From Candidatus Woesearchaeota archaeon (lineage in GTDB: Archaea > Nanobdellota > Nanobdellia > Woesearchaeales > ARS49), in contig JBBILB010000006.1 of NCBI GenBank assembly GCA_037445145.1, positions 2,064 through 66,063 of the forward strand: a stretch of 64,000 bases of DNA. Direction: 5' to 3'. The position numbers and the translations under genes were made by a program. Below the pieces are notes generated by a model that saw only the letters and a program-made list of their open reading frames with translations, ran no database searches and was not told where the DNA came from. Of the stretch, positions 13,839 through 25,711 are shown one piece after another (position 1 is the stretch's first letter; each line of letters begins with the position of its first letter).

Positions 13839-13916
13839 CCTTGAGGTTTGCACGAACGAAGTGAGTGCAACAAGAGGCTTAGCCGGACCGCGTTTCAGGC
13901 GCCTTGATGGAGTTTT
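13839..13916 (-). repeat. Intergenic repeat family 3, copy 1 (overlaps the pduO 3' end)
   Basis: Matches 34999-35066: CCTTGARGTTTGC...GTGCAAC...GGACCGC...TTCAG...CTTGATGGAGTTTT. Confidence 0.7.
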
Positions 13917-14517
13917 GGTCTTGTTTGTCTTGCTGATTGCCTGATGAATTGTCTTCTTTAAAGTACTTGTATATTGGCTGCTGTTCTGGTGCTGCGAATT
14001 CCTTGTTTGCGTATCTTGCCATCACGTAGAGGAGGTCTGAGAGCCTGTTCATGTATCTTATTATTTCAGGGTTGAGGGGGTATTGCTGGCTGAGCGCGAC
14101 AATCAGGCGTTCTGCTCTCCTGCAGACTGTCCTTGCAAGGTGGAGGAACGTGCTTGCCTGTGTACCTTTTGGCAGGATAAATGATGAGGGCGGGGTGAGC
14201 ATTGCGTCAAGCTCGTCAATGTGCTGCTCAAGTTCCCTCACTTGCTGGGGTGATGTCTGAGGGAGCTTTCTTGTTCCTGTGCTTGCCTTGCTCGTGAACC
14301 AAGAGAGCTCTGCTCCAAGGGTAAAGAGGTCGTGCTGGGCTTTCTCCACTATTTTCTGGAGTTTGTCGTCGGTTATGAAGCCAAGCGTCACGCCGAGGAC
14401 GCTGTTGAGCTCGTCAAGGGTGCCTGTTGCCTCTATGCGCAGGTCGTTTTTTGAGACGCGTTCCCCTCCCACGAATCCTGTCTTTCCTTCATCACCTGTT
14501 TTTGTGTAGATTTTCAT
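13879..14517 (-). CDS. pduO: ATP:cob(I)alamin adenosyltransferase, PduO type
   Basis: KIYTKTGDEG, GTLDELNS, ARTVCRRAER, NRLSDLL. Confidence 0.93.
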   Translation of the reverse strand: MKIYTKTGDEGKTGFVGGERVSKNDLRIEATGTLDELNSVLGVTLGFITDDKLQKIVEKAQHDLFTLGAELSWFTSKASTGTRKLPQTSPQQVRELEQHIDELDAMLTPPSSFILPKGTQASTFLHLARTVCRRAERLIVALSQQYPLNPEIIRYMNRLSDLLYVMARYANKEFAAPEQQPIYKYFKEDNSSGNQQDKQDQNSIKAPETRSG

Positions 14518-16673
14518 GGCTGCATCGGCGTCCCGCACACTTGGCATATGTTGCCTCTTTGCGAGAACTGCATTGCGGCACCGCATTCATCGCATCGGAC
14601 AAACGGGTTTTCTTGTGCTTGGCCTGTGGTCTTCTGCTCGTGTTTTCTTGTGCGGGCAATGTTTATTACCTGCTGGTCAAGGCTTTTGTCGCGGTACACG
14701 GTCAGTCCCTTGCAGCCGAGCTTGTGCGCAAGAATGAAGCCCTGTGAGACGTCCAGCAGGCTTGCGTCAGCAGGGAAGTTTATTGTCTTTGATATTGCGT
14801 TGTCAACGTGCTTTTGGAAGGCTGCCTGCATTCTTATGTGCCACTCAGGGGGGATTTCCTGCGCCGTGACGAAAATGCGCTTGACATCATCAGGAATCTC
14901 GGGAATGTGCTGGATTCCGCCACGCTCTGCTATTTCGCGCATTAATTGGTCTGAGTAAAAGCCGCGCTGTTTGGCAATCTTTGAAAAGACCTTGTTGACG
15001 TAGATGAGATCCGTGTCGCCCATCACGTTCTTGACGTATGAGATTGCAAAGTTCGGCTCAATGCTTGGGGAGACATCAGCTATCATGCTTATTGTCCCTG
15101 TTGGGGCTATCGTTACCAGAGAGGCATTTCGCAATGGCAGACTGCGTTGTGCAAAGGTGCTGTCCGCCCATGCAGGGAATGTTCCGCGCTGCTCTGCAAG
15201 GGCAATGCTTTTCGCGATTGCTTCTTCTTTTACGAATTTCATTATGCGCTCTGCCCATTTCAGTCCTTCCTCTGAGTTGTAAGGCACACCCATGTGGTAT
15301 AGGACATCTGCAAACCCCATTATCCCAACCCCGATCTTCCTGGTTGCCTTGCTTGCCTTCTCAATTTCAGGCAGGGGGTACTTGTTGACGTCAATGACGT
15401 TGTCAAGGAAGTGGACGGCATCATGCACGAGCAGCCTGAGCTTTTCCCAGTCAAACCCGTCATTTTTTACGCAGGAGAGCAGGTTTATTGCACCGAGGGG
15501 CGCTGACTCGTAAGGCATCAGCGGCTGGTCTCCGCAGGGGTCTGTTGCCTCAATCTCGCCAAGCCCGATGAGCGGGTTGTGCTGGTTTATTCTGTCAAGG
15601 AAAACAAGCCCCGGGTCTCCGCGCTGCCAGGCAAGCGCAACGATGTTGTCAAAGACGCCTCGTGCTGAGAGCGTTGTCACCGCCTGCTTTGTCCTTGGGT
15701 TTATTATGCTGTATTCGCGGTCGTTAACCACTGCGTCCATGAACGTGTCTGTGACGCCCACGGAGAGGTTGAAGTTTGTGAAGCTCTTGCCGTCTGCCTT
15801 CAGGTTGATGAATTCAAGGATGTCCGGGTGGTCAACGCGGAGTATGCCTATGTTTGCGCCCCTCTGAACTCCGCCTTCCTTTATTATGTTTGTTGATGCG
15901 TCAAAGAGGCGCATGAATGCCGTGGGTCCTGTTGACTGCCCCTGGCTTGTTGCAATGATGTCGTGCTTTGGCCTTAGCCTTGAGAACGAGAATCCTGTGC
16001 CGCCGCCTGTCTTGTGTATCATTGCTGCGTGCTTTAGGGCGTCAAAGATGCTTTCTATTGAGTCCTCGACAGGCAGGACGAATGAGGAGACCAGTTGCTG
16101 CACAGGCGTTCCGGCGTTCATCAGGGCGGGCGCGTTTGGGAGGAATTCAAGCCTGCGCATCCGGTCGTAGAACTTTTGCGCTGCTGCCTTGACATCGCCG
16201 CCGTAGAATGCCTCTGCTTGGGCAATGTTTGCTGCAACCCTTTTGAACATTTGCGAAGGCGTTTCAAGCAGCCTGCCTTCGGCGTCCTTCCTGAGGAACC
16301 TTTTTTCAAGCACTTTCAGCGCATTGAGGGATAGATCTGTTTCCTCGTCAGTCATTCCCTGCAGTATTGTCTTTTTGAGATTTCTTAGTTCTGTGCGTTT
16401 TTGCCTGTACAGGATGTATGCCTTTCCTATCTTTGCCTCCCCGCTTGAGATGAGGACTTCCTCAACTACATCCTGTATTTCCTCAACTGTCGGTATCTTG
16501 TCCTTGAACCTTGCCTCGAGGAGTTCCACAACCCTGTCGGAAAGCGCTTTTGCAAGAGGCATGTTTGGGCTTCCGACCGCCTGTGATGCCTTGAAAATTG
16601 CAGTGACTATTTTTTCCTGGCTGAAGTCAACAACGCGCCCGTCCCTTTTTGTTATTTTTGTGAGAAAAGTCAT
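14514..16673 (-). CDS. Class II (B12) ribonucleotide reductase paralog with ATP cone and altered active site
   Basis: ATP cone (ITKRDGRV...VEEIQDVVE); GGGTG, APTGTIS, ISKTIN, KGLTVYRD present; LVSSFV, TDPCGDQ and ESAPLG replace the canonical Cys motifs. Confidence 0.88.
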   Translation of the reverse strand: MTFLTKITKRDGRVVDFSQEKIVTAIFKASQAVGSPNMPLAKALSDRVVELLEARFKDKIPTVEEIQDVVEEVLISSGEAKIGKAYILYRQKRTELRNLKKTILQGMTDEETDLSLNALKVLEKRFLRKDAEGRLLETPSQMFKRVAANIAQAEAFYGGDVKAAAQKFYDRMRRLEFLPNAPALMNAGTPVQQLVSSFVLPVEDSIESIFDALKHAAMIHKTGGGTGFSFSRLRPKHDIIATSQGQSTGPTAFMRLFDASTNIIKEGGVQRGANIGILRVDHPDILEFINLKADGKSFTNFNLSVGVTDTFMDAVVNDREYSIINPRTKQAVTTLSARGVFDNIVALAWQRGDPGLVFLDRINQHNPLIGLGEIEATDPCGDQPLMPYESAPLGAINLLSCVKNDGFDWEKLRLLVHDAVHFLDNVIDVNKYPLPEIEKASKATRKIGVGIMGFADVLYHMGVPYNSEEGLKWAERIMKFVKEEAIAKSIALAEQRGTFPAWADSTFAQRSLPLRNASLVTIAPTGTISMIADVSPSIEPNFAISYVKNVMGDTDLIYVNKVFSKIAKQRGFYSDQLMREIAERGGIQHIPEIPDDVKRIFVTAQEIPPEWHIRMQAAFQKHVDNAISKTINFPADASLLDVSQGFILAHKLGCKGLTVYRDKSLDQQVINIARTRKHEQKTTGQAQENPFVRCDECGAAMQFSQRGNICQVCGTPMQP

Positions 16674-17188
16674 ACTGGTGCTGAAGCAGTTATTTTTCTG
16701 GCTCTTCCCCCTGCACCCTTCTGGGAGGCGGACTTATTAAACTTTGCTGCTTCCCGTGCCGCTTCAACAAACTGTCTGGCTTCTGTGAAGCGTTTGTAGA
16801 CTGATGCGAACCTGACATATGCGACCTCGTCCATTGCCTTTAGTTTTTCAACAACCATGTCGCCTACGAGCCTGCTTGGTATTTCTGTCCTGTCCATCTG
16901 CCTTAGCTGCAGTTCTATGTCGTTGACTGCGCGCTCAATCCTTTCCATTCTCACAGGTCTTTTTTCGCAGGCCCTGAGGATGCCTCTCAGGAGCTTGGTG
17001 CGGTCAAACGGCTCGCTCCTGCCGTCTTTTTTTATGATTGAGAGGCCGAGGATTTCAACGTGCTCTTTTGTGGTAAAGCGTTTTGCGCATTTGGTGCACT
17101 CTCTTCTGCGCCTTATTGAGCTGTTGTCAGAGGCAGGCCGGCTGTCAAGGACGCTTGTTTCGTGGTGCTGGCAGTAGGGGCATTTCAT
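16670..17188 (-). CDS. nrdR: Transcriptional repressor NrdR
   Basis: MKCPYC...VLDSR...IRRRRECTKCAKRFTT zinc ribbon, ATP cone, AYVRFASVY. Confidence 0.96.
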   Translation of the reverse strand: MKCPYCQHHETSVLDSRPASDNSSIRRRRECTKCAKRFTTKEHVEILGLSIIKKDGRSEPFDRTKLLRGILRACEKRPVRMERIERAVNDIELQLRQMDRTEIPSRLVGDMVVEKLKAMDEVAYVRFASVYKRFTEARQFVEAAREAAKFNKSASQKGAGGRARKITASAPV

Positions 17189-17229: not shown

Positions 17230-20043
17230 TTACGAGCATCCTGTTGTTGAGCCGCAGTTTATGCATTTGTAGCACGTGCCGCTTCTTATTGTGAAGTGTC
17301 CGCAGCTTGGGCATGGCGGCGCGTCTGCTGAGAGGCTTTTTGCGAGCGAGCTTGCATCATTTGGAAGAGAGTGGTTTTGTGCAGGCAGTTTTTGAGATGC
17401 CGGCTCTGTTTTTTGGGCTTTTGCAGGCGGCGGCACGTGCGCAAGGTCTGTCCTGTTGAGGTATTCCATTCCAAGCACTCTGAAGACAAAGTCAACAAGG
17501 CTTGTGCTTGTTTTTATGTTGGGGTGGGTTGTTATTCCTGACGGCTCAAAGCGTGTGAAAGTGAATAACTCAACGAATTTTTCCAGCGGGACTCCGTGCT
17601 GGAGCCCTATGCTGACTGCCTGTGCAATGCAGTTCATCAGACTTCTCATTGGAGAGCCTTCCTTGTGCATGTCTATGCTGAATTCGGCGAGTGAGCCGTC
17701 AGGGAACTCGCTTGTTCGTATAATCAGGCGGTTTCCTGCGACAACAGAGTCAACTGTTATTCCGGTGCGCCTTTGCGCAAGGGTTTTTGCGTCTGCGACG
17801 GCTGGCTTTTTTTGCTGTGCGCTTCCGCCTGCTGTGAGGGGCTGTGAGAGCTTGCACCCGTCCCTGTAGACAGAGACTGCCTTCAGCCCGAGCTTCCAGC
17901 TTTCAACGTAAATTTTTTCTATTTCTTCTACTGTTGTTTCGTTTGGCAGGTTTACTGTTTTTGATAATGAGCCTGAGAGGAATGGCTGGATTGCGGCCAT
18001 CATCCTTATGTGCCCCATGGGGCTTATGAAGCGCTTTCCGTTTCCGCACTTGTTTGCGCAGTCAAACACTGCAAGGTGGTCTTCCTTTATGTGCGGAGCG
18101 CCTTCCATAGCGCCTGTTTCAAGGACGTATGCCTGTATTTCCTTGACCTGCTGTTCTGTGTACCCGAGTCTTCTTAATGCCTTTGGCACGCTTTGGTTGA
18201 TTATCTTGAAATAACCGCCGCCGGCGAGTTTTTTGTATTTCACAAGTGAGAAGTCAGGCTCTACCCCTGTTGTGTCGCAGTCCATGAGGAGCCCTATTGT
18301 TCCTGTTGGCGCGAGCACTGTCACCTGTGCGTTCCTGAAGCCGTATTTTTCGCCGAGCTCAACTGCGTTGTCCCAGTCGTCTCTTGCTGCCTTGAGCAGG
18401 TCTGGGGGGCAGTGCCTTACGTCTATCTTGTATGCTGCGTCGCGGTGCTTTCTTATGACGCGGAGCATTGGTTCCCTGTTTTTTTGGAATCCTGCGAATG
18501 GTCCCTTGACTGATGCCAATTCTGCCGAGACGCAGTATGCGTGGCCGGTCATTATTGCTGTCAGTGCTCCTGCTATTGCGCGGCCTTTGTCTGAGTCATA
18601 AGGCACCCCGAGCACCATTAACAGCGCTCCAAGATTTGCATATCCCAGGCCGAGGGCGCGGAAGTTGTGGGTGTTTTCAGCGATTTGCCTTGTTGGATAG
18701 CTTGCGAAGTCAACAAGTATTTCCTGGGCTATGAGGAATATCCTGCACGCGTGCCTGTATGACTGGATGTCAAAGGTGCCGTCCGCGTTGAGGAATTTCA
18801 TGAGGTTTATGCTTGCGAGGTTGCAGGATGAGTCGTCAAGGAACATGTATTCCGAGCAGGGGTTGCTTGCCTTGATGCGGGCCGTGTTCGGGCAGGTGTG
18901 CCAGTCATTGATTGTCGTGTCAAACTGGACGCCGGGGTCTGCGCACACCCATGCCGCGCGGCATATTTGCTTCATGATGTCTCTTGCGTCGTATTCCTTA
19001 TGCACTTCTCCGGTTGTGCGGTAGCGGGTTTTCCATTTTCCGCCTGTGAGGTATGCCTGCATGAATTCGTCGGTTATGCGCACTGAGTTGTTTGAGTTCT
19101 GCCCTGCGACTGTAAGGTATGCCTCGCCGTTGAAGTCTGCGGAGTATCCTGCTGCGACCAGCGCCTTGACCTTTTTTTCCTCTTCCACTTTCCAGTTTAT
19201 GAATTCAAGGATTTCTGGGTGGTCAAGGTCGAGGCAGACCATTTTTGCCGCCCTGCGCGTTGTTCCTCCTGACTTCATTGAGCCTGCTGCACGGTCAAAG
19301 ACAGCAAGGAACGTCATGAGCCCTGAGCTTGTGCCTCCTCCTGCGAGCTTTTCGTACTTGCTCCTTAATGCTGAGAAGTTTGTGCCTGAGCCGGAGCCGT
19401 ACTTGAACAATTTTGCTTCGCTTTTGACAAGGTCAAAGATGCTGCCCAGGTCGTCTTGTATTGACTGGATGAAGCATGCAGAGCACTGGGGCCTTGCGTA
19501 CGCGCTTGTTGTTTGTTGCAATGATTGCGTGTCAAAGTCCCAGTACCAGTTCCCTCCTGTGCCGGTGATGCCGTACTGGTGGTAAAGCCCGCAGTTGAAC
19601 CAGACAGGCGAGTTGAATGCGCCTTTTTGGTTTATGAGCATGTGGGCAAGCTCCATTTCGAATGCGTCTGCGTCTTCTGTTGACTGGAAGTATCCCAATG
19701 CCTCTCCTGCAAGGCGTATTGTGTTTGAAATCCTGAAAACAACCTGTTTTACGCTTGTTTCGTGGCCTGTGCCCGGCACTCCTGCCTTTCTGAAGTATTT
19801 TGAGACAAGGATGTCAGTTGCGAGCTGTGTCCAGTTCTTTGGCACTTCTGCCCCTTCCAGCTTGAAGACAACCTTTCCGTCAGGTTCTGCTATCACAGAG
19901 GAGCGCTTTTCATACTCTACCTCGTCCAGCGGGTTTACGTCTGGCTTTGTGAAATGCCTTTTTATTTTAAGGCGCGTGTCATTGAGTTCAATCTCTGATG
20001 TATGCAATATGTCCTCTACTGCCCTTTCGCCATTAGAAGCCAT
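17230..20043 (-). CDS. nrdJ: Class II adenosylcobalamin-dependent ribonucleotide reductase with C-terminal TSCPD-like domain
   Basis: FNSPVWFN, QCSACFI, ASNPCSEY, SSCNLASINL, APTGTIG; terminal CPSC...GTC..CINC...GCS. Confidence 0.95.
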   Translation of the reverse strand: MASNGERAVEDILHTSEIELNDTRLKIKRHFTKPDVNPLDEVEYEKRSSVIAEPDGKVVFKLEGAEVPKNWTQLATDILVSKYFRKAGVPGTGHETSVKQVVFRISNTIRLAGEALGYFQSTEDADAFEMELAHMLINQKGAFNSPVWFNCGLYHQYGITGTGGNWYWDFDTQSLQQTTSAYARPQCSACFIQSIQDDLGSIFDLVKSEAKLFKYGSGSGTNFSALRSKYEKLAGGGTSSGLMTFLAVFDRAAGSMKSGGTTRRAAKMVCLDLDHPEILEFINWKVEEEKKVKALVAAGYSADFNGEAYLTVAGQNSNNSVRITDEFMQAYLTGGKWKTRYRTTGEVHKEYDARDIMKQICRAAWVCADPGVQFDTTINDWHTCPNTARIKASNPCSEYMFLDDSSCNLASINLMKFLNADGTFDIQSYRHACRIFLIAQEILVDFASYPTRQIAENTHNFRALGLGYANLGALLMVLGVPYDSDKGRAIAGALTAIMTGHAYCVSAELASVKGPFAGFQKNREPMLRVIRKHRDAAYKIDVRHCPPDLLKAARDDWDNAVELGEKYGFRNAQVTVLAPTGTIGLLMDCDTTGVEPDFSLVKYKKLAGGGYFKIINQSVPKALRRLGYTEQQVKEIQAYVLETGAMEGAPHIKEDHLAVFDCANKCGNGKRFISPMGHIRMMAAIQPFLSGSLSKTVNLPNETTVEEIEKIYVESWKLGLKAVSVYRDGCKLSQPLTAGGSAQQKKPAVADAKTLAQRRTGITVDSVVAGNRLIIRTSEFPDGSLAEFSIDMHKEGSPMRSLMNCIAQAVSIGLQHGVPLEKFVELFTFTRFEPSGITTHPNIKTSTSLVDFVFRVLGMEYLNRTDLAHVPPPAKAQKTEPASQKLPAQNHSLPNDASSLAKSLSADAPPCPSCGHFTIRSGTCYKCINCGSTTGCS

Positions 20044-20090: not shown

Positions 20091-20108
20091 ACCACAACAA
20101 GTAGTGGT
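20091..20108. promoter_or_regulatory. NrdR box-like palindrome upstream of nrdJ
   Basis: ACCACAACAAGTAGTGGT resembles the NrdR consensus acaCwAtATaTwGtgt; weak second site CCACTAACAGTATGAA 32 bp away. Confidence 0.7.
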
Positions 20109-20345: not shown

Positions 20346-21378
20346 ATGATTATTAAACCTGAAAAACTAGAAAAAAGAGACACTATTGCATTTGTTGCTC
20401 CAGCAAGTGGTTTAGCTGCTTTAGTTCCACACAGGTTAAAGACTGCCAAATCATATTTTGAGAAAAAGGGATATAAAGTTAAGATATATCAATCAGCTTT
20501 GAAAAATGAAGGATTCAGTTCAACATCTCCAGAAGAGCGAGCAAAGGATATTAATGAAGCGTTTAAAGATCCGAAGGTTAAAATGATAATCTCAACTATA
20601 GGAGGAAATTCTTCTCATCAAATATTAGAATTTTTAGATTTTGATTTAATAAAACAAAATCCTAAAATATTTGTAGGCTATTCTGATATTACTTCATTGC
20701 ACTTTGCTTTTCATGTTAAATCAGATTTGGTTACTTTCTACGGACCTACTGCAATTGCCGAGTTTGGAGAATTTCTTAATTTTGAGGAATATACTGAAAA
20801 ATATTTTTTTAAAGCAGTTGCTTCGAATTCTCCAATCGGGATAATAACTCCATCTTCTAGATGGACCGATTGTAAAAAAGCAAACTGGCTCAAAAAAGAA
20901 GATTTAAAGTTAAAAAGAAAATATAGGGAAAATAAAGGTTATGAGTGGTTAAGAGAAGGAAAAGCCGCTGGAAAAATTATTGGTGGGTGCATTACTTCTA
21001 TGATGCATACAAAAGGAACTAAATATTGGCCAGATTTTTCAAATAAAATGCTTTTTTTAGAAACTCCTGAAGGAGAATTTTTTTTTTAGAGGAGAGTCTT
21101 TAGCAAATATTGACGGATACATGGCGGATTTAAAACTTTTAGGAATTTTCGAAAAAATAAAAGGACTAATTTTTGGTAGAGGATTTGGATATACTAATGA
21201 GGAAATAGAAAAACTAAAAAAACTAATACTATTCCATACAAAAGATTTTAATTTTCCAATTTTATACGGTGCAGACATAGGACATACAGATCCTAAGATA
21301 ACCATCCCAATAGGAGTAAAAGTTAGTTTAAACTCAGAAAATAATCATTTTTCAATAGATGAGTCTGGAACAAGATAA
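20346..21378 (+). pseudogene. S66 peptidase (LD-carboxypeptidase/MccF family) split by a frameshift in a T10 tract
   Basis: VAPAS, STIGG, GYSDIT, LFLE in ORF1; GHT in ORF2; deleting one T at 21078-21087 fuses them into 343 aa; AT-rich. Confidence 0.85.
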
Positions 21379-21590: not shown

Positions 21591-24185
21591 TTATTTCTTC
21601 CTGTGCATCCAGTAGAGGTAAATGCCAAGTGCTATCAGTGCAATGACTGCAATGGCATAGAATACCTTGTCAAGTACAGGTGTTTTTGCCTGTGGCTTAA
21701 CCACGATTATTGGCTCTTGCTTGTAAGTTTCTGCGGGCGGCTCTTCTGCGGCTGCCTTTGGCAGGGGCTTTGGCGTGTAAATGCAGTCCTGCTCTGTCTT
21801 TGGCTTTAGTTTTGTTGTTCCGCAGGAATTCAGGTCGGTGCATTCCCTTGTCTGCTTTGTGTTCACGCATTCGCTCCAGTCATCGCACACCCAGTTTTCA
21901 AAGCAAGAACCAACGGTTGTTGTAGTGTTGAGGGGCCTGTAAACCCCGCCGCTTCCGCCTCCTCCGCTTCCTCCGCCGCTTCCGCCTCCGCCTGCTGACT
22001 GGACTGTTGTCTGCTCGGTTACGGTCAGGTTGATTTGTGTGCCGTTTACGTTATTGTAGGACAAGTTTGCCGTGTTGTTGATTGTTGTGTCGGCAAGCGC
22101 CAATGGCAGGTTTACTGTTATGTTCACGACAATTGTCTGGTTTGCTGTCAGGTTGCCGAGCGCAAATGTGTTGTTTGTCCCTGATACGGGCGTTGGCTGG
22201 GCGCTGTCAAAGACAACCCCTGCCGGATAAATGTCAATCAGGGTGAGGTTGCTTACGTTTGTTATTGTTGGGTCAAGGTTTGTGATTGCTATTGTTATTG
22301 TGTATATGAGTGGGTTTGCCACTGTAATCGGATCTGAGCTGTCTGTCTTTGTCAAATTCAGTGTCAGCCCGCCTTCTGTTGTTGAGAACGTTGTAAAGTG
22401 GGACACGTTGAAGACGTATCCTGCTGTTGGGCTGCCGCTGAGCGGTGTGCACGTGCCTGCAGGGCAGTTCTCAAAGCTGCCGTCGTCGTCCCAGTCAACA
22501 AGCAGTCTTGGTGTTGTGTAATTGAGCCCGAAAAGAGTTATTATTCCTGTTATGTTAAGGTACGGCAGTGCTGTGCTGTTGAGGTGTGCCTTGTTATTTG
22601 AAATATTCAGTTTCGGCTTGTTTATTTCGTCAGAGCCGTTGATTTCAAAAGTGCCCGGAATGTTGAGCGTTCCTGAGGGCATTGTGAATGTTGTGTTAGT
22701 GAAGTTGTTTCTTGTTTCTGCTCCTGCGATTATCCACGAGAGCGTGTTGTTAATCACTGTCCTGGTGAATACTGTTCCGTTGGAAAGCACCAGTTGTATC
22801 CCTATTGCATTTGCACCTGTTGCTGTGATGTTGTTTGACTGGAAGATGTTGTATGATGATGACTCAGTGTAAATTCCCCTTGCAGCCCCTGAACCGCTGA
22901 ACAGCAACGTGTTGTAAGTCATGTTTGTCCTGTTCTGGCGCGTGAAATTGGCCACGTATGTTGCATTGTCGCTGTTGACCTCAATCCTGTTGTTTTCAAA
23001 AACACAGTATTCGCCCTCTGCATACAGCCCGCCGAGCGTTGTGTTGTTTATTGTTGCATTGTTGCCCCTGGCTGTTGACCCTGAGCCGTGCACATATAGC
23101 CCTATGCTGGAAACGCCAACCGGCGTGTTGCTGATTGTTACTGTGTTGTGCATAACTGTTGCATTTGCTTCCACATCATTCTCGTGATACACAGATATGC
23201 CTCTAATTGATGTGAACAACGGGTCAGCTATTGCGCCGATGATTGTAACCACATTGTTCACGATTCTGGGCAGCAGGAGGTAATTTGCAGAAATCCCTGT
23301 TGCAGAGCTGGTCGGCGACGTGATTGTTATTGTGTTGTTTTCAACATGGTTTGTGGTGTTGTGATAAACACCAAGGTCATCAACGCCACTCAGGTAAATG
23401 GCGGTTGCCGAGCCATAGTTTGAGGATGAGAGGTTGTTGTCTGCAACAATGTTGTTGTTTGCGCCATACCTCACGTATATTCCCGGATAAGCAGCGCTTC
23501 CGCCGAAGTTTATGGTATTGTACTTTATAACCGAGTCGTTGGAGTGCACAAAAATGCCCCTGAGGTATTTTGTTCCTGCAACATCTGTTATGTTGTTGTT
23601 AAGGATGCTGTTTGCATTTGCAAGTGTGCCGAGGTATATTCCCGTGCCGTTTTGGCCTGTTATTGTGTTTCCAACAATTGTGTTGTTTATTGAGCCGCCC
23701 GTGAGGTAGATTCCGTGATCATTGTTTGAATGGGTTATTGTTATTGTGTTGTTTTCTATTGTGTTGTTGTGCGAGATGACTCCTGTTTCTGACTCAAGCA
23801 CAATGCCATAGCCTCCGCCAACTGTTGAGTTGAGCCGGATTGTGTTGTTGTAAACATAGCTCAGGTTAACATTTGTAAGATAAACACCTGTATTGGTTCC
23901 TGATGCGGCAATATCCCAAATAATGCACCCCGTGACTGTTATGTTTTTTTGGTTTGTTGCATAAATGGCATTAATGCTTCCATTGGAGTATATTGTGAAC
24001 CCTTGGCAGTCAAGTGTTGCATTGCTTGCATTTATGATTATGCAGTCGGCATTGGCAATTATGTCATTTGCAAGAGTGCTTGAGTCATTGATTGTCACAG
24101 GGCAGCTTGTTATGCTGAATGCAAAAACATAATTGGCAAAACATGCCAAAAGAAGAACACAAATTACGGGGACTGCCTTTCTCAC
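21591..24185 (-). CDS. Cell-surface protein: beta-helix repeats, DUF11-like domain, Gly linker, Cys/Trp module, C-terminal TM anchor
   Basis: Signal peptide, many NN(T/N)I repeats, LTKTDSSDP, GGGGS linker, CFENWVCDDWSEC, TM followed by RKK. Confidence 0.8.
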   Translation of the reverse strand: MRKAVPVICVLLLACFANYVFAFSITSCPVTINDSSTLANDIIANADCIIINASNATLDCQGFTIYSNGSINAIYATNQKNITVTGCIIWDIAASGTNTGVYLTNVNLSYVYNNTIRLNSTVGGGYGIVLESETGVISHNNTIENNTITITHSNNDHGIYLTGGSINNTIVGNTITGQNGTGIYLGTLANANSILNNNITDVAGTKYLRGIFVHSNDSVIKYNTINFGGSAAYPGIYVRYGANNNIVADNNLSSSNYGSATAIYLSGVDDLGVYHNTTNHVENNTITITSPTSSATGISANYLLLPRIVNNVVTIIGAIADPLFTSIRGISVYHENDVEANATVMHNTVTISNTPVGVSSIGLYVHGSGSTARGNNATINNTTLGGLYAEGEYCVFENNRIEVNSDNATYVANFTRQNRTNMTYNTLLFSGSGAARGIYTESSSYNIFQSNNITATGANAIGIQLVLSNGTVFTRTVINNTLSWIIAGAETRNNFTNTTFTMPSGTLNIPGTFEINGSDEINKPKLNISNNKAHLNSTALPYLNITGIITLFGLNYTTPRLLVDWDDDGSFENCPAGTCTPLSGSPTAGYVFNVSHFTTFSTTEGGLTLNLTKTDSSDPITVANPLIYTITIAITNLDPTITNVSNLTLIDIYPAGVVFDSAQPTPVSGTNNTFALGNLTANQTIVVNITVNLPLALADTTINNTANLSYNNVNGTQINLTVTEQTTVQSAGGGGSGGGSGGGGSGGVYRPLNTTTTVGSCFENWVCDDWSECVNTKQTRECTDLNSCGTTKLKPKTEQDCIYTPKPLPKAAAEEPPAETYKQEPIIVVKPQAKTPVLDKVFYAIAVIALIALGIYLYWMHRKK

Positions 24186-24258: not shown

Positions 24259-25077
24259 ATGGAGGGAATTCATGTTTTTGGGTTTAATCTTGCGCACACT
24301 CTTGATTCTGGGCAGTTTTTCAGGTGTCATTTGCACGATGGCTGGTATTACATAGTGTCCCGGGAAAAGGTTTTCAGGGTAAGGCAGGAAGCTGACAGGT
24401 TGTTTTTTGAGGGAGCTTCTGAGCGCTTTGTGCGTCATTTTTTTGGGCTTGATGAGGATTATTCTCGGATTATGCGCGAATTGTCAAAAGATCCTGCGCT
24501 TAGGATTGCAATTAAGAAATATCCTGGATTAAGGCTTATCAGGCAGGACCCTTGGGAATGCACTGTTGGCTTTCTTTGCTCGCAGTTCTCAAACATAAAG
24601 AAGATTAAGAAAAATATGGACTGTATTGCTGAGAAGTTCGGCTCTCCTGTTTTTTTCAAGGGCAAGAAGTTTTACACTTTTCCTTTGCCCGGCTCGCTTA
24701 ATGATGTTGCACTGCTGAAAAAGTGCGGTGTTGGCTTCAGGGCAAAATACATTGTTGGAGTTAATTCGAGAGTCAGTGATGCATGGTTTGCCCGGCTGAA
24801 AACTCTCCCTTATGAAAAAGCAAAAGAGAGATTAATGGCGCTTCCTGGTATTGGTGAAAAGGTTGCTGACTGCATTTTGCTGTTTGCTCTTGGATTTACA
24901 GAGGCGTTTCCTGTTGATGTGTGGATGGAAAGGGTGATTAAGGAGCAGTATCTTGGGACAAAAAACACAAAATTGAAAGACCTTGCTGATTTTGGAAGGG
25001 AGAAATGGGGCAGAATTGCAGGATATGCACAGCAGTACTTGTATCATTGGAGGCGTTTGCATGGTAAATCACGCTGA
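24259..25077 (+). CDS. 8-oxoguanine DNA glycosylase (OGG1-like, HhH-GPD)
   Basis: TLDSGQFFR, RQDPWE, LPGIGEKVADCILLF, FPVDVW, AGYAQQYL. Confidence 0.9.
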   Translation: MEGIHVFGFNLAHTLDSGQFFRCHLHDGWYYIVSREKVFRVRQEADRLFFEGASERFVRHFFGLDEDYSRIMRELSKDPALRIAIKKYPGLRLIRQDPWECTVGFLCSQFSNIKKIKKNMDCIAEKFGSPVFFKGKKFYTFPLPGSLNDVALLKKCGVGFRAKYIVGVNSRVSDAWFARLKTLPYEKAKERLMALPGIGEKVADCILLFALGFTEAFPVDVWMERVIKEQYLGTKNTKLKDLADFGREKWGRIAGYAQQYLYHWRRLHGKSR

Positions 25078-25711
25078 GATTGATATTGTGCTGAGGAAAT
25101 TGCTTAAGTCGCAGGGCTCTTCAACAATGCTCAACAGGTTGGGCAAAAAGCATGACCCGTTCAGGGTGTTGATATCAACTATTCTCAGCGCGCGTGCAAA
25201 GGACGAAGTTACAGAGGCGGTTTCTGCTGACTTGTTCAGGAAGTATCCGCGTGCTGAAAAGCTGGCAAAGGCTGACAGGAAGGATGTTATCAGGATTATC
25301 AGGAGGATTGGGTTTTATAACACAAAGTCAAGGAATATCATTAATGCTGCAAAGATGCTTGTCAATAAGTTTGGTGGAAAAGTGCCGAAAGATATGGAAA
25401 GGCTTCTTGAGATTCCGGGCGTTGGAAGGAAGGTTGCGAACTGCGTGCTTGTTTATGCTTATGGCGTGCCTGCACTGCCTGTTGACACGCACGTGCACAG
25501 GGTTTCTAACAGGCTTGGCTGGGTTAAGACAAGGACTCCTGAAGAAACAGAGCTTGCCCTTGAGAGAATTGTTCCGCGGAAGCACTGGCTGGTTGTCAAC
25601 GAGGCGTTTGTTTCGCACGGGCAGGCAATTTGCGTTCCAGTATCGCCTTTTTGCTCAAAATGCCCAATAATTAAATACTGCAAGCGCATTTCTGTTGTGA
25701 AATCGAGGTGA
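25061..25711 (+). CDS. nth: Endonuclease III
   Basis: ILSAR, PGVGRKVAN, VDTHVHR, C-x6-C-x2-C-x5-C Fe-S motif. Confidence 0.93.
   Translation: MVNHAEIDIVLRKLLKSQGSSTMLNRLGKKHDPFRVLISTILSARAKDEVTEAVSADLFRKYPRAEKLAKADRKDVIRIIRRIGFYNTKSRNIINAAKMLVNKFGGKVPKDMERLLEIPGVGRKVANCVLVYAYGVPALPVDTHVHRVSNRLGWVKTRTPEETELALERIVPRKHWLVVNEAFVSHGQAICVPVSPFCSKCPIIKYCKRISVVKSR

What the first reader, a model, noticed from the sequence alone, without database searches (positions are those of the whole stretch)
14514..16673. Intact class II RNR paralog that keeps the radical Cys but has lost all redox cysteines: candidate new B12 radical enzyme
Seen: full-length 719-aa ORF with ATP cone and conserved scaffold motifs (GGGTG, APTGTIS, ISKTIN, KGLTVYRD). 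LSACFV reads LVSSFV (Ser197, codon TCA). TNPCGEQ reads TDPCGDQ, with Cys380 kept and N and E both replaced by D. ESCNLG reads ESAPLG (Ala391). The C-terminal zinc ribbon has only CDEC/CQVC, without the extra GxC and terminal Cys that the neighbouring NrdJ carries. NSPT reads NAPA, and loop 2 QGG.RRGA reads EGGVQRGA. Established: class I/II RNRs need the C225/C462-type pair, the N437/E441-type residues and C-terminal shuttle Cys for reduction; mutants lacking the pair stall after water loss and give 3'-keto-2'-deoxy products. Inference: coordinated loss of four redox Cys with retention of the thiyl Cys and conservative N/E-to-D swaps looks like selection rather than decay. It could be a redox-neutral radical dehydratase or rearranging enzyme on a nucleotide or sugar phosphate, an RNR using a small-molecule reductant, or a pseudo-enzyme.
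Basis: partly seen in the sequence, partly recalled or inferred. Interest (0 to 1): 0.92.

Follow-up and report, generated by a model that had tools for sequence, protein, structure and literature searches.

The report
B12 ribonucleotide reductase without redox cysteines
A tiny archaeon keeps, under strong selection, a copy of the vitamin-B12 enzyme that makes DNA building blocks from which exactly the four electron-carrying cysteines have been removed, so it must do something other than the textbook reaction.

Summary
Window 14514-16673 (minus strand) encodes an intact 719-aa ATP-cone class II RNR (NrdJ) homolog. It keeps the thiyl Cys380. It has Ser197 and Ala391 in place of the active-site Cys pair, Asp378/Asp382 in place of Asn/Glu, and a C-terminal zinc ribbon that lacks only the two shuttle Cys.

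It is not decay:
- 28 sequences (66-100% identical) share the pattern.
- dN/dS is about 0.04-0.07, the same as a canonical NrdJ and enolase in the same genomes.
- The active-site segments are as invariant as those of the canonical NrdJ.

The gene is the positional ortholog of a canonical nrdR-nrdJ-pduO gene in a related archaeon. It is translationally coupled to nrdR and to a PduO adenosyltransferase, and it lies downstream of a cone-less canonical NrdJ.

An independent, larger family of NTP-type NrdJ-like proteins in related archaea (Nanoarchaeota/Woesearchaeota by source names) has reached the same Ser/Asp-Cys-Asp signature. That family also has no tail Cys, and in one family of genomes it lies beside PduO and thymidylate synthase genes. 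Every genome checked also has a canonical RNR.

The function remains unknown. My best reading (0.5) is a still-catalytic AdoCbl thiyl-radical enzyme that finishes without protein thiols. The main rival (0.3) is a non-reducing regulatory partner of the neighbouring NrdJ. I found no description in the papers searched.

The parts
14514..16673 (-). 719-aa NrdJ-like protein (P0001) without redox cysteines
   Evidence: ORF; Pfam ATP-cone + RNR lgN + RNR barrel; best solved relative T. maritima NrdJ
16389..16658 (-). ATP-cone domain (residues 6-95)
   Evidence: Pfam PF03477, E 8e-23
16128..16139 (-). Apical phosphate loop P-N-A-P (residues 179-182); canonical NDP reducers have P-N-S-P
   Evidence: Translation; clade has Thr 22, Ala 4, Ser 2 at residue 181; motif meaning from Schell 2021, PMC8365446
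16083..16085 (-). Ser197 codon TCA in place of the first active-site Cys
   Evidence: Ser in 28 of 28 clade members, Cys in 92 of 92 others
15855..15881 (-). Loop 2 KEGGVQRGA (residues 265-273); canonical KQGGKRRGA
   Evidence: Q266->E in 22 of 28 and R270->Q in 26 of 28
15525..15545 (-). Finger-loop motif TDPCGDQ (residues 377-383): thiyl Cys380 kept, Asn->Asp378, Glu->Asp382
15498..15503 (-). Ala391-Pro392 in place of the second active-site Cys and its Asn
14535..14594 (-). C-terminal zinc ribbon CxxC-x12-CxxC (Cys694, 697, 710, 713); the two shuttle-Cys positions are Gly707 and Gln718
   Evidence: roles of the six Cys from Loderer 2017, PMC5704485
16670..17188 (-). nrdR (172 aa); its stop overlaps the start of the NrdJ-like gene (ATGA)
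   Evidence: Pfam Zn_ribbon_NrdR + ATP-cone; junction sequence
17230..20043 (-). Canonical 937-aa NrdJ without ATP cone, with TSCPD domain and 6-Cys tail; first gene of the cluster
13879..14517 (-). PduO-type cob(I)alamin adenosyltransferase; likely start ATG at 14517 overlaps the stop of the NrdJ-like gene (ATGA). The longest ORF reaches 14586
   Evidence: Pfam PF01923, E 2e-58, from residue 26 of the long ORF; junction sequence
20092..20107 (.). 16-bp palindrome CCAC-N8-GTGG, 64 bp upstream of the long nrdJ; resembles an NrdR box (consensus recalled)
   Evidence: present upstream of the long nrdJ in 6 of 7 related genomes, missing in G203, which also lacks nrdR

Best explanation
The gene encodes a selected derivative of a dimeric, ATP-cone-bearing, NDP-type class II ribonucleotide reductase. 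The whole thiol electron relay was removed: two active-site Cys and two tail Cys. The radical-initiating half was kept: thiyl Cys380, finger loop, distal phosphate loop, the beta-J segment KGLTVYRD, ATP cone and zinc ribbon.

I think it most likely still binds AdoCbl, supplied by the translationally coupled PduO adenosyltransferase, and a ribonucleotide. It would then generate the Cys380 thiyl radical and abstract the 3'-H. Asp382 would act as base on the 3'-OH, and Asp378/Ser197 would assist loss of the 2'-OH. The enzyme would then finish without protein thiols.

My first choice (about 0.25-0.3) is return of the hydrogen from Cys380 to C2'. That is a redox-neutral dehydration to a 3'-keto-2'-deoxynucleotide. 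My second choice (about 0.2) is reduction by a diffusible donor.

It works in deoxynucleotide supply, co-expressed with a cone-less canonical NrdJ under NrdR.

Shown: intactness, selection, conservation of the active-site region, operon structure, convergence. Inferred: AdoCbl use, radical chemistry, substrate, product.
For: - Thiyl Cys380 is kept in 28 of 28 clade members, in the five other non-canonical representatives aligned, and in all 45 non-canonical sequences.
- The substituted residues are fixed, not drifting: S197 28/28, D378 28/28, P392 28/28, D382 26/28, A391 26/28. Across all columns, 36% are invariant and 57% have at least 26 of 28 identical.
- 175 of the 214 columns that are at least 95% conserved in 92 canonical NrdJ are kept. 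The non-conservative changes cluster at the active site and loop 2.
- Across the same six genomes, the fraction of invariant columns matches the bona fide canonical NrdJ: finger loop 0.79 vs 0.79, phosphate loop 0.88 vs 0.85, residues 191-300 0.79 vs 0.77. The ATP cone is less conserved, 0.55 vs 0.64.
- dN/dS is 0.067 at the median and 0.042 and 0.059 in the two unsaturated pairs. The canonical NrdJ gives 0.069 and enolase 0.078.
- An independent P[SGA]GR-type lineage has the same signature: 43 of 45 non-canonical sequences have D-C-D and 39 also have Ser197. A tree built without the active-site columns separates the two lineages, and the AU test rejects one clade, p 0.0007.
- The PduO adenosyltransferase overlaps the gene's stop. 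It lies directly downstream in 7 of the 8 clade genomes examined besides the window's own; in the eighth, G206, the gene is split over two contigs and PduO follows its 3' part. It also follows the odd gene in 5 of 6 loci of the independent lineage. In three of those genomes the other NrdJ lies on another contig (G548, G532) or about 11 kb away (G170).
- The AlphaFold2 model is confident (pLDDT 86.6) and matches T. maritima NrdJ, TM 0.82-0.84 by target length.
- From recall, not from a call: E. coli and L. leichmannii RNR mutants lacking the bottom-face cysteines still carry out 3'-H abstraction and water loss and give 3'-keto-2'-deoxynucleotides.
Against: - No biochemical, structural or expression evidence exists.
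- AdoCbl-contact residues could not be checked, because no coordinates or residue list were available.
- The PduO linkage is inherited from the canonical ancestor arrangement (G220: nrdR, canonical nrdJ, pduO). It is therefore not specific evidence for a new function.
- A 3'-keto-2'-deoxynucleotide is chemically labile and has no known metabolic use (recalled). No conserved reductase or other partner enzyme lies nearby: the neighbours are ATR, Gins51, ThyA/ThyX and DHFR.
- N->D, E->D and C->S are the most conservative single-step substitutions, so part of the 'convergence' could reflect structural constraint after loss of function.
- The gene always co-occurs with a canonical RNR and often lies right behind a cone-less one. 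That also fits a partner-subunit role.
- The beta-phosphate-contacting Ser of the P-N-S-P loop is relaxed in the clade: Thr 22, Ala 4, Ser 2.
Confidence: 0.5

Rival explanations
1. Non-catalytic partner subunit (alpha-prime). The protein has lost reductase activity. It serves as an ATP-cone-bearing regulatory or scaffolding partner of the adjacent cone-less canonical NrdJ, giving it dATP/ATP control. This would resemble ATP cones carried on a separate subunit in some class I RNRs, or the inactive yeast Rnr4.
For: - All four redox Cys are gone.
- Lundin 2015 lists the proton- and electron-donating Cys as present in all three RNR classes (PMC4390871), and it is absent here.
- All nine non-canonical proteins scanned keep an ATP cone. 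The upstream canonical partners scanned have none: the 937-aa NrdJ of the window, G067 665 aa, G566 643 aa.
- A canonical NrdJ lies directly upstream in all 9 clade genomes (the window's own and 8 others). It is cut by a contig end in G202, and in G206 the odd gene is split over two contigs. A canonical NrdJ also lies directly upstream in G067 and G566, the 3' end of an RNR gene lies upstream in G045, and a second RNR gene lies within about 3 kb in G402 and G304.
- Every genome scanned with the RNR barrel family has another RNR gene: G000, G201 and 9 genomes of the other lineages.
- The cluster appears to be under NrdR.
Against: - A dead site should relax, but the finger loop, phosphate loop and barrel core are as invariant as in the canonical NrdJ of the same genomes, and the ATP cone is the less conserved part.
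- The thiyl Cys is never lost in any of the independent lineages.
- The replacement residues are themselves fixed and recur independently.
- The window's own genome also has a canonical NrdJ that carries its own ATP cone.
- The long NrdJ is only about 27-29% identical to the protein, which makes a heterodimer through the usual helix bundle less obvious.
Confidence: 0.3
2. A true ribonucleotide reductase that takes its reducing equivalents from outside its own cysteines. The donor could be a small molecule (formate as in class III, or sulfide in a sulfidic subsurface habitat). It could also be thiols delivered in trans, from the 6-Cys tail of the neighbouring NrdJ or from a thioredoxin, into the cavity left by Cys->Ser and Cys->Ala. 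This partly overlaps my second choice under the best explanation. It is listed separately because its product would be an ordinary dNDP.
For: - The context is purely deoxynucleotide synthesis: nrdR, canonical nrdJ and ATR here; ATR, ThyA+DHFR or ThyX in the independent lineage.
- The radical-initiating and nucleotide-binding parts are conserved.
- Class III RNRs show that formate can replace the thiol relay, and a Cys-free formate mechanism was proposed for a proto-RNR (PMC4390871).
- Loderer 2017 reports electron transfer by the Cys-rich tail between subunits (PMC5704485 abstract).
- Three thioredoxin-family genes are present in the genome.
Against: - Even class III enzymes keep one bottom-face Cys; here none is left, and no other conserved Cys replaces it. 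Cys401 is inherited and also occurs in canonical relatives.
- Adding a second carboxylate (N->D) is not what one expects for binding an anionic reductant such as formate (inference).
- No PFL-like and no formate/nitrite transporter gene was found in the window's genome, which is estimated 100% complete.
- It is never the only RNR in a genome.
Confidence: 0.15
3. A decaying pseudogene, an assembly or read artefact, or a chimeric MAG contig.
For: All sequences come from metagenome assemblies, and the only sequencing run that holds the stretch may be its own source.
Against: - The 719-codon frame is intact, with no N in the window.
- The same pattern is found in 27 further database clusters from several sources.
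- It is also found in 8 other genome assemblies with conserved synteny.
- dN/dS is 0.04-0.07.
- The changed codons differ from Cys codons by at least two bases.
Confidence: 0.02

Closest known systems
Thermotoga maritima class II RNR NrdJ (PDB 1xje, 3o0o and others)
   Same: Closest solved relative by sequence (E 1e-116) and by fold (Foldseek TM 0.82-0.84 by target length, 36% identity). Shares the thiyl Cys on the finger loop, the APTG phosphate loop, the beta-J motif and the dimeric NDP-type architecture.
   Different: T. maritima has the Cys pair, Asn and Glu at the aligned positions. The window protein has Ser, Ala, Asp and Asp. It also has an ATP cone and a zinc-ribbon tail that are not matched in the crystallised chain.
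Canonical ATP-cone NrdJ with a Cys-rich zinc-finger tail (NrdJd of Stackebrandtia nassauensis, Loderer 2017; nearest relatives P0029-P0036 and G220, 55-60% identical)
   Same: Same domain order and same zinc-ribbon position. The gene order is also the same, nrdR-nrdJ-pduO, in G220. The clade nests inside this group in two trees.
   Different: The canonical proteins have six tail Cys. In the S. nassauensis enzyme, four were assigned to zinc and two (Cys933, Cys945) to the electron shuttle. The clade keeps the four zinc positions and lacks exactly the two shuttle positions. It also lacks the active-site pair.
P[SGA]GR-type ATP-cone NrdJ-like family of Nanoarchaeota/Woesearchaeota found here (P0295, P0374-P0426 and others)
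   Same: Ser at 197, Asp-x-Cys-x-Asp on the finger loop, second Cys lost, ATP cone kept. Lies beside a PduO adenosyltransferase and often behind a canonical cone-less NrdJ.
   Different: Separate origin: NTP-type apical loop, 43-49% identity, AU test p 0.0007. It has no C-terminal zinc ribbon at all. Position 391 is mostly Gly, and position 392 is mostly still Asn. As far as my searches show, it is also undescribed.
Active-site mutants of E. coli class Ia R1 (C225S, C462S, N437, E441) and of L. leichmannii RTPR (recalled, not from any call)
   Same: They lack the same residues. As I recall, they still perform 3'-H abstraction and water loss and yield 3'-keto-2'-deoxynucleotide, which breaks down to base, pyrophosphate and a furanone.
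   Different: Those are laboratory mutants that inactivate themselves. Here the changes are natural, combined, conserved and selected.
Inactive RNR paralogs: yeast Rnr4 and herpesvirus R1 homologs such as M45 (recalled; M45 appears only in a search listing)
   Same: RNR-family proteins that lost catalytic residues and were kept for a non-catalytic role.
   Different: The radical Cys and the whole active-site region remain under the same constraint as in an active enzyme. No partner binding is shown.
Class III RNR (formate as reductant) and AdoCbl-dependent diol dehydratase
   Same: They show, respectively, that ribonucleotide reduction can run on a small-molecule reductant and that AdoCbl radical enzymes can dehydrate vicinal diols without net redox (recalled).
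   Different: No glycyl-radical domain and no bottom-face Cys. The fold is RNR, not that of diol dehydratase. These are analogies of mechanism only.

Membership tests
Class II ribonucleotide reductase (NrdJ) | Ten-stranded alpha/beta barrel with finger loop; RNR sequence family | tested here: met
   Pfam PF02867 E 6e-126 and PF00317; AF2 model pLDDT 86.6; Foldseek top hits are T. maritima NrdJ
Class II ribonucleotide reductase (NrdJ) | Radical (thiyl) cysteine at the tip of the finger loop | tested here: met
   Cys380 aligns with the Cys of TNPCGE; 28 of 28 in the clade
Class II ribonucleotide reductase (NrdJ) | Active-site cysteine pair that reduces the substrate | tested here: not met
   Ser197 and Ala391; 0 of 28 clade members have Cys at either position, against 92/92 and 91/92 of the others
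Class II ribonucleotide reductase (NrdJ) | Conserved Asn and Glu on the finger loop (N-x-C-x-E) | tested here: not met
   Asp378 and Asp382; Asn and Glu in 92 of 92 others
Class II ribonucleotide reductase (NrdJ) | C-terminal shuttle cysteine pair that re-reduces the active site | tested here: not met
   Gly707 and Gln718 at the two shuttle columns; the four zinc-ligand Cys are kept 28/28. Roles taken from Loderer 2017
Class II ribonucleotide reductase (NrdJ) | Binds and uses adenosylcobalamin | not testable with these tools
   Indirect only: coupled PduO adenosyltransferase; beta-J motif KG.TVYRD conserved; no residue list or coordinates at hand
Class II ribonucleotide reductase (NrdJ) | Apical phosphate loop P-N-S-P (NDP) or P-[ASG]-G-R (NTP) | tested here: inconclusive
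   P-N-A-P in the window; the clade has Thr 22, Ala 4, Ser 2 at the Ser position. Schell 2021 describes the N, S and P positions as fully conserved in NDP reducers
Class II ribonucleotide reductase (NrdJ) | Scores above NCBI's equivalog cut-off (TIGR02504 NrdJ_Z) | tested here: met
   672.6 bits against a cut-off of 399.95. Pipelines therefore name it an RNR, as sources did for P0004 and P0005. This is a naming test, not a test of function
Class II ribonucleotide reductase (NrdJ) | Reduces ribonucleotides to deoxyribonucleotides | not testable with these tools
   Needs an enzyme assay
Inactive RNR partner subunit (pseudo-enzyme) | Relaxed constraint on the former active site | tested here: not met
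   Active-site segments are as invariant as in the canonical NrdJ of the same six genomes; the replacement residues are fixed
Inactive RNR partner subunit (pseudo-enzyme) | Stable complex with an active paralog | not tested
   The two chains exceed the 1000-residue limit of complex prediction, and a pass would rest on likeness to solved dimers. Only adjacency is shown
Class III RNR (formate-dependent) | Glycyl-radical domain and one bottom-face Cys | tested here: not met
   No such domain in Pfam; Ser197
NCBIfam NF005401 'ribonucleotide reductase-like protein' | Score above the family cut-off of 906 bits | tested here: not met
   285.6 bits

The most novel reading that the evidence does not exclude
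The Ser/Asp-Cys-Asp NrdJ-like proteins are catalytically active AdoCbl thiyl-radical enzymes. This covers the zinc-ribbon clade studied here and the larger tail-less P[SGA]GR-type family in related archaea. They would run nucleotide chemistry without any protein thiol. One possibility is a new redox-neutral ribonucleotide 2'-dehydratase. The other is a new RNR subclass fed by a diffusible reductant (formate or sulfide), close to the Cys-free 'proto-RNR' chemistry proposed on theoretical grounds. The signature would then have evolved at least twice, next to canonical NrdJ genes.
Probability: 0.5. Interest if true: 0.92.

Novelty: new variant of a known kind. Interest (0 to 1): 0.8.

Why it matters
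Ribonucleotide reduction is the only known de novo route to DNA building blocks. A review lists the proton- and electron-donating cysteine as present in all three RNR classes (PMC4390871).

Here a natural, strongly selected family keeps the radical machinery and has removed every redox cysteine, and the pattern recurs independently. That points to one of three things:
- a first non-reductase chemistry on the class I/II RNR scaffold;
- a thiol-independent way to make deoxynucleotides;
- a new type of regulatory RNR subunit.

Each can be tested directly with a recombinant protein.

There is also a practical consequence. These proteins pass the curated NrdJ equivalog model and are named reductases in databases. 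Counts of RNR genes, and of NDP plus NTP reductase pairs, in these small-genome archaea may therefore be inflated.

Tried and rejected
- Pseudogene or read error: rejected.
- A compensating cysteine elsewhere: rejected. The only additional clade-invariant Cys is Cys401. It lies 10 residues past Ala391, and it also occurs in 7 of 92 canonical relatives and in G220.
- PduO adjacency as proof of a new function: weakened, because the canonical G220 gene has the same neighbour.
- Metagenome scan for more clade members: returned none, best 57% identity.
- The genome-contig scan gave one clade member, L006. Sampling 200 genomes of the order gave none. Relatives of L006's genome gave the rest.
- NrdR-box search with a wrong spacing (CAC-N10-GTG) found nothing and was corrected to N8. 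The palindrome upstream of the other canonical NrdJ (contig C10) has N6 spacing and was not counted.
- Expression: no RNA holder listed.
- Formate route: no PFL-like and no formate/nitrite transporter match in the window's genome. This is weak evidence only.
- AdoCbl-contact residues: no residue list found in PMC9669993 and no coordinates are available, so not tested.
- Complex prediction: not used. The chains of interest exceed 1000 residues together, and a dimer would pass by likeness to solved RNR dimers.
- PduO was not found within the roughly 1.5-kb flanks of the P0281-like genes of G402, G304 and G324.
- Prior description: searches, and passages of the Burnim preprint, gave no paper on NrdJ homologs lacking the cysteine pair. 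Subscription journals and supplementary files were not visible, so this is not proof of absence.
- Papers, what I saw. Passages found by term search: 10.1101/2022.04.23.489257, PMC5704485, PMC8365446, PMC4390871, PMC9669993. Abstract start in a listing only: PMC8465479.
- Recalled, from no call: T. maritima and E. coli residue numbers, the behaviour of C225S, C462S, N437 and E441 mutants and of 2'-halo substrates, the NrdR-box consensus, diol dehydratase chemistry, Rnr4.
- Caveats on counts. The clade was defined by identity and motif after inspection. The AU-test group was named after a first tree had been seen. Both trees used the 'quick' method. dS is saturated (above 1) in most pairs, so the two low-dS pairs are the reliable ones. 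Sequences of 900 aa or more were dropped before the count. G202 showed only one match at the threshold, so its second canonical NrdJ was 'not found with this query'. G422 looks like the same genome as G202 and was not counted again.
- Genomes flagged unpublished (G132, G112, G183, G121; G215) enter only the tallies of those two calls. No sequence or claim rests on them.

Full report
WHAT IS THERE

Window 14514-16673 holds an uninterrupted 719-codon ORF on the minus strand. Pfam finds an ATP cone (residues 6-95), the RNR all-alpha domain (113-190) and the RNR barrel (from 195). The closest solved protein is the dimeric class II RNR of Thermotoga maritima, by sequence (E 1e-116) and by fold. The AlphaFold2 model has mean pLDDT 86.6 and pTM 0.84, and its Foldseek top hits are 1xje, 3o0q, 3o0n and 3o0o with TM 0.82-0.84 by target length.

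In the HMMER alignment:
- Ser197 lies on the Cys of LSACFV.
- Asp378, Cys380 and Asp382 lie on the N, C and E of TNPCGE.
- Ala391-Pro392 lie on the C-N of EACNLG.

The codons are TCA, GAC, TGC, GAC, GCG and CCC. TCA and GCG are each at least two changes from a Cys codon.

The C-terminus reads CDEC-x12-CQVC. Loderer et al. 2017 studied the six-Cys tail of a canonical NrdJ. They assigned four Cys to zinc and two (Cys933, Cys945) to the electron shuttle (PMC5704485, passages). In my alignment the clade keeps the four zinc columns (28 of 28 each) and lacks exactly the two shuttle columns, which are Gly707 and Gln718 in the window. So all four cysteines of the thiol relay are gone, and the radical Cys and the zinc site remain.

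IT IS A CONSERVED CLADE UNDER PURIFYING SELECTION

Of the 120 best relatives among 5.8 billion proteins, 28 (the query included, 66-100% identical) carry Ser197, Asp378, Cys380 and Pro392. Position 382 is Asp in 26, Gly in 1 and Glu in 1. Position 391 is Ala in 26 and Ser in 2. Of the other 92 (59% identity or less), 91 are C/N/C/E/C/N and one has Phe for the second Cys. The 28 form one clade (SH-aLRT 100) nested among canonical ATP-cone NrdJ with zinc-ribbon tails (quick tree).

Only 15 columns are fixed differently (85% or more on both sides) between clade and canonical sequences. They include residues 197, 378, 382, 391, 392 and 395 at the active site and residue 270 in loop 2. Of the 214 columns that are at least 95% conserved in the 92 canonical proteins, 175 keep the same residue in the clade. 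There is no compensating cysteine. The only extra clade-invariant Cys, Cys401, also occurs in 7 of 92 canonical relatives and in the canonical G220 protein.

Eight further genome assemblies carry the gene (74-85% identical) with the same motifs. Pairwise NG86 dN/dS has a median of 0.067. The two unsaturated pairs give 0.042 and 0.059. Controls in the same genomes give 0.069 for a canonical NrdJ, 0.078 for enolase and 0.155 for the long NrdJ.

Across the same six genomes, the share of invariant columns is the same for this protein and for the canonical NrdJ:

| Region | This protein | Canonical NrdJ |
|---|---|---|
| Finger loop | 0.79 | 0.79 |
| Distal phosphate loop | 0.88 | 0.85 |
| Residues 191-300 | 0.79 | 0.77 |
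| ATP cone | 0.55 | 0.64 |

The former active site is therefore still under full constraint.

GENOMIC SETTING

The gene order on the minus strand is:
- a canonical 937-aa NrdJ (17230-20043; no ATP cone, TSCPD domain, six-Cys tail);
- nrdR (16670-17188);
- the Cys-less gene;
- a PduO-type cob(I)alamin adenosyltransferase (13879-14517);
- then gins51 and housekeeping genes.

The nrdR stop and the gene's start overlap as ATGA. The gene's stop and the likely pduO start overlap in the same way.

This order is kept in the 8 other assemblies. G203 lacks nrdR. In G202 the long nrdJ is cut by the contig end, and in G206 the gene is split over two contigs.

A 16-bp palindrome CCAC-N8-GTGG lies upstream of the long nrdJ in 6 of 7 genomes. 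It is missing in G203, the genome without nrdR. It resembles an NrdR box; that consensus is recalled.

The window's genome (0.9 Mb, estimated 100% complete) has three RNR-barrel genes. The third is a canonical ATP-cone NrdJ on contig C10, next to a CobA/BtuR-type adenosyltransferase. L006's genome has the same three.

In genome G220 (found among the relatives of L006's genome) the best hit is a canonical NrdJ, 60% identical, with SACFVV, NPCGEQ, ESCNLG and a six-Cys tail. It sits in the order nrdR-nrdJ-pduO. The Cys-less gene is therefore the positional ortholog of a canonical, NrdR-linked NrdJ. Its PduO neighbour is inherited.

THE SAME SIGNATURE AROSE A SECOND TIME

Among the 150 best 50%-identity representatives, five others are non-canonical. 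Following them revealed a large family. Sources name its members as from Nanoarchaeota or Woesearchaeota. Its features are:
- an NTP-type apical loop P-[SGA]-G-R (meaning from Schell et al. 2021, PMC8365446, passages);
- an ATP cone;
- no Cys in the tail.

Of 97 sequences shorter than 900 aa around P0295, 45 are non-canonical. Of those 45, 43 have Asp378-Cys380-Asp382 and 39 also have Ser197. Position 391 is mostly Gly, Ser or Val. Smaller groups show other combinations: the P0202 group S/D/C/E, and the P0281 and P0241 groups S/S-or-T/C/E. All of them keep the thiyl Cys.

A tree built without the active-site, loop and tail columns places the window's clade with P-N-S-P zinc-ribbon NrdJ (99) and the other family with P-G-G-R NrdJ (94). 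The AU test rejects a single clade, p 0.0007. That group was named after a first tree had been seen.

In six loci of this family (five genomes of one family plus G045):
- a PduO adenosyltransferase follows the gene in 5;
- then comes ThyA plus DHFR in 3, or ThyX in 2;
- a canonical, cone-less, six-Cys-tailed NrdJ lies directly upstream in G067 and G566;
- the 3' end of an RNR gene lies upstream in G045.

All nine genomes of these other lineages that I scanned have a further RNR gene.

WHAT IT MOST LIKELY DOES

Shown:
- an intact, selected protein with a fully constrained active-site region;
- it lacks what the canonical mechanism needs for the reductive half-reaction, namely the cysteine pair that reduces the 3'-ketodeoxynucleotide via a disulfide radical anion (abstract of PMC8465479), the Glu base and the tail shuttle;
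- it sits in deoxynucleotide-synthesis gene clusters beside a canonical NrdJ.

Inferred: it still binds AdoCbl and a nucleotide and forms the Cys380 thiyl radical.

By analogy with laboratory mutants lacking the bottom-face cysteines (recalled), the default chemistry of such a site is 3'-H abstraction and loss of the 2'-OH. With no thiol on the lower face, the hydrogen could return from Cys380 to C2'. That would give a 3'-keto-2'-deoxynucleotide without net redox. Asp382 would be the base, and Asp378/Ser197 would assist the leaving group. They might do so through a bound metal, as in diol dehydratase; that part is speculation. Alternatively a diffusible donor completes the reduction.

I give 0.5 to 'still a thiol-independent radical enzyme'. 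Within that, the dehydratase is slightly ahead of the diffusible reductant.

The main rival (0.3) is a non-reducing partner of the adjacent cone-less NrdJ that brings an ATP cone. For it: the recurrent tandem arrangement, and the fact that the gene is never the sole RNR. Against it: the undiminished constraint on the active site, the never-lost thiyl Cys, and the fixed, recurrent Asp residues.

A true reductase fed from outside gets 0.15. An artefact gets 0.02.

Weak points:
- PduO linkage is ancestral.
- N->D, E->D and C->S are the most conservative substitutions.
- The keto product is labile, and no partner reductase is conserved nearby.
- The Ser of the P-N-S-P loop is relaxed (Thr 22, Ala 4, Ser 2).
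- No PFL-like or formate-transporter gene was found in the genome.
- There are no expression or biochemical data.

COMPARISON AND NOVELTY

By fold and sequence this is a member of the NrdJ family, and it passes NCBI's NrdJ_Z equivalog cut-off (672.6 against 399.95 bits). That is why databases name such proteins reductases. It fails three tested defining features of a class II reductase: the Cys pair, Asn/Glu, and the shuttle pair. It should not be filed as an ordinary RNR.

Six literature searches, and passages of the large RNR phylogeny preprint, gave no description of such proteins. Subscription journals and supplements were not visible.

I rate it a new variant of a known kind with unknown function. 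Interest is high because it recurs, is selected, and can be tested with one recombinant protein.

Noticed in passing
window 16670-17188 and 20092-20107; L220:8302-8949: An archaeon of very small genome carries the bacterial-type repressor NrdR. An NrdR-box-like palindrome CCAC-N8-GTGG lies upstream of the long nrdJ in 6 of 7 related genomes. G203 lacks both nrdR and the palindrome. G220 has two such palindromes upstream of nrdR.
   Followed up: partly
own genome contig C10 (L002:356-874 and L002:937-3024, minus strand): A third NrdJ (canonical, ATP cone, short GGCPxxxCPF tail) lies next to a CobA/BtuR-type adenosyltransferase. This 0.9-Mb genome therefore keeps three NrdJ-family genes and two different cobalamin adenosyltransferases.
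   Followed up: partly
L258-L263 (G067, G566, G548, G170, G532, G045); proteins P0295, P0374-P0426: A large tail-less P[SGA]GR-type NrdJ-like family has Ser/Asp-Cys-Asp and an ATP cone. It is followed by PduO and ThyA+DHFR or ThyX. P0293 keeps both Cys but already has Asp-Cys-Asp and no tail, so it may be an intermediate form.
   Followed up: partly
P0202 and P0271-P0277; P0281/P0283 (L233, L235, L236); P0241/P0268: Further small groups of NrdJ-like proteins have other non-canonical active sites (S/D/C/E, S/S-or-T/C/E). None has a Cys tail, and all keep the thiyl Cys. In G402 and G304 the gene lies within about 3 kb of a roughly 890-aa RNR gene.
   Followed up: partly
window 24259-25077 and 24983-25711 (+): Two overlapping ORFs carry OGG_N and HhH-GPD domains respectively. 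This may be one 8-oxoguanine DNA glycosylase gene split by a frameshift, or two genes.
   Followed up: no
window 20346-21089 (+): The LD-carboxypeptidase (Peptidase_S66) ORF matches only 33 of the 120 positions of the C-terminal domain profile. It may be truncated or frameshifted.
   Followed up: no
window 21591-24185 (-): An 864-aa Asn/Thr-rich right-handed beta-helix protein has a Gly-Ser linker and a C-terminal hydrophobic stretch. It is probably a surface protein. It is much less conserved among the related genomes (44-69% over partial lengths) than its neighbours.
   Followed up: no
P0064, P0367, P0395, P0430 and many 50% representatives of 1000-1900 aa: Many NrdJ relatives carry inteins (PF14528, PF14890). 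In the alignment one insertion falls directly before the thiyl Cys column.
   Followed up: no
G148:C1:140102-145931: Three NrdJ-like matches lie in tandem within 6 kb in one genome of the same order.
   Followed up: no
NCBIfam NF005401 (PRK06948): NCBI maintains a subfamily model named 'ribonucleotide reductase-like protein'. The window protein scores far below its cut-off (285.6 against 906), and none of the 14 control genomes reaches it. I did not look at what those proteins are.
   Followed up: no
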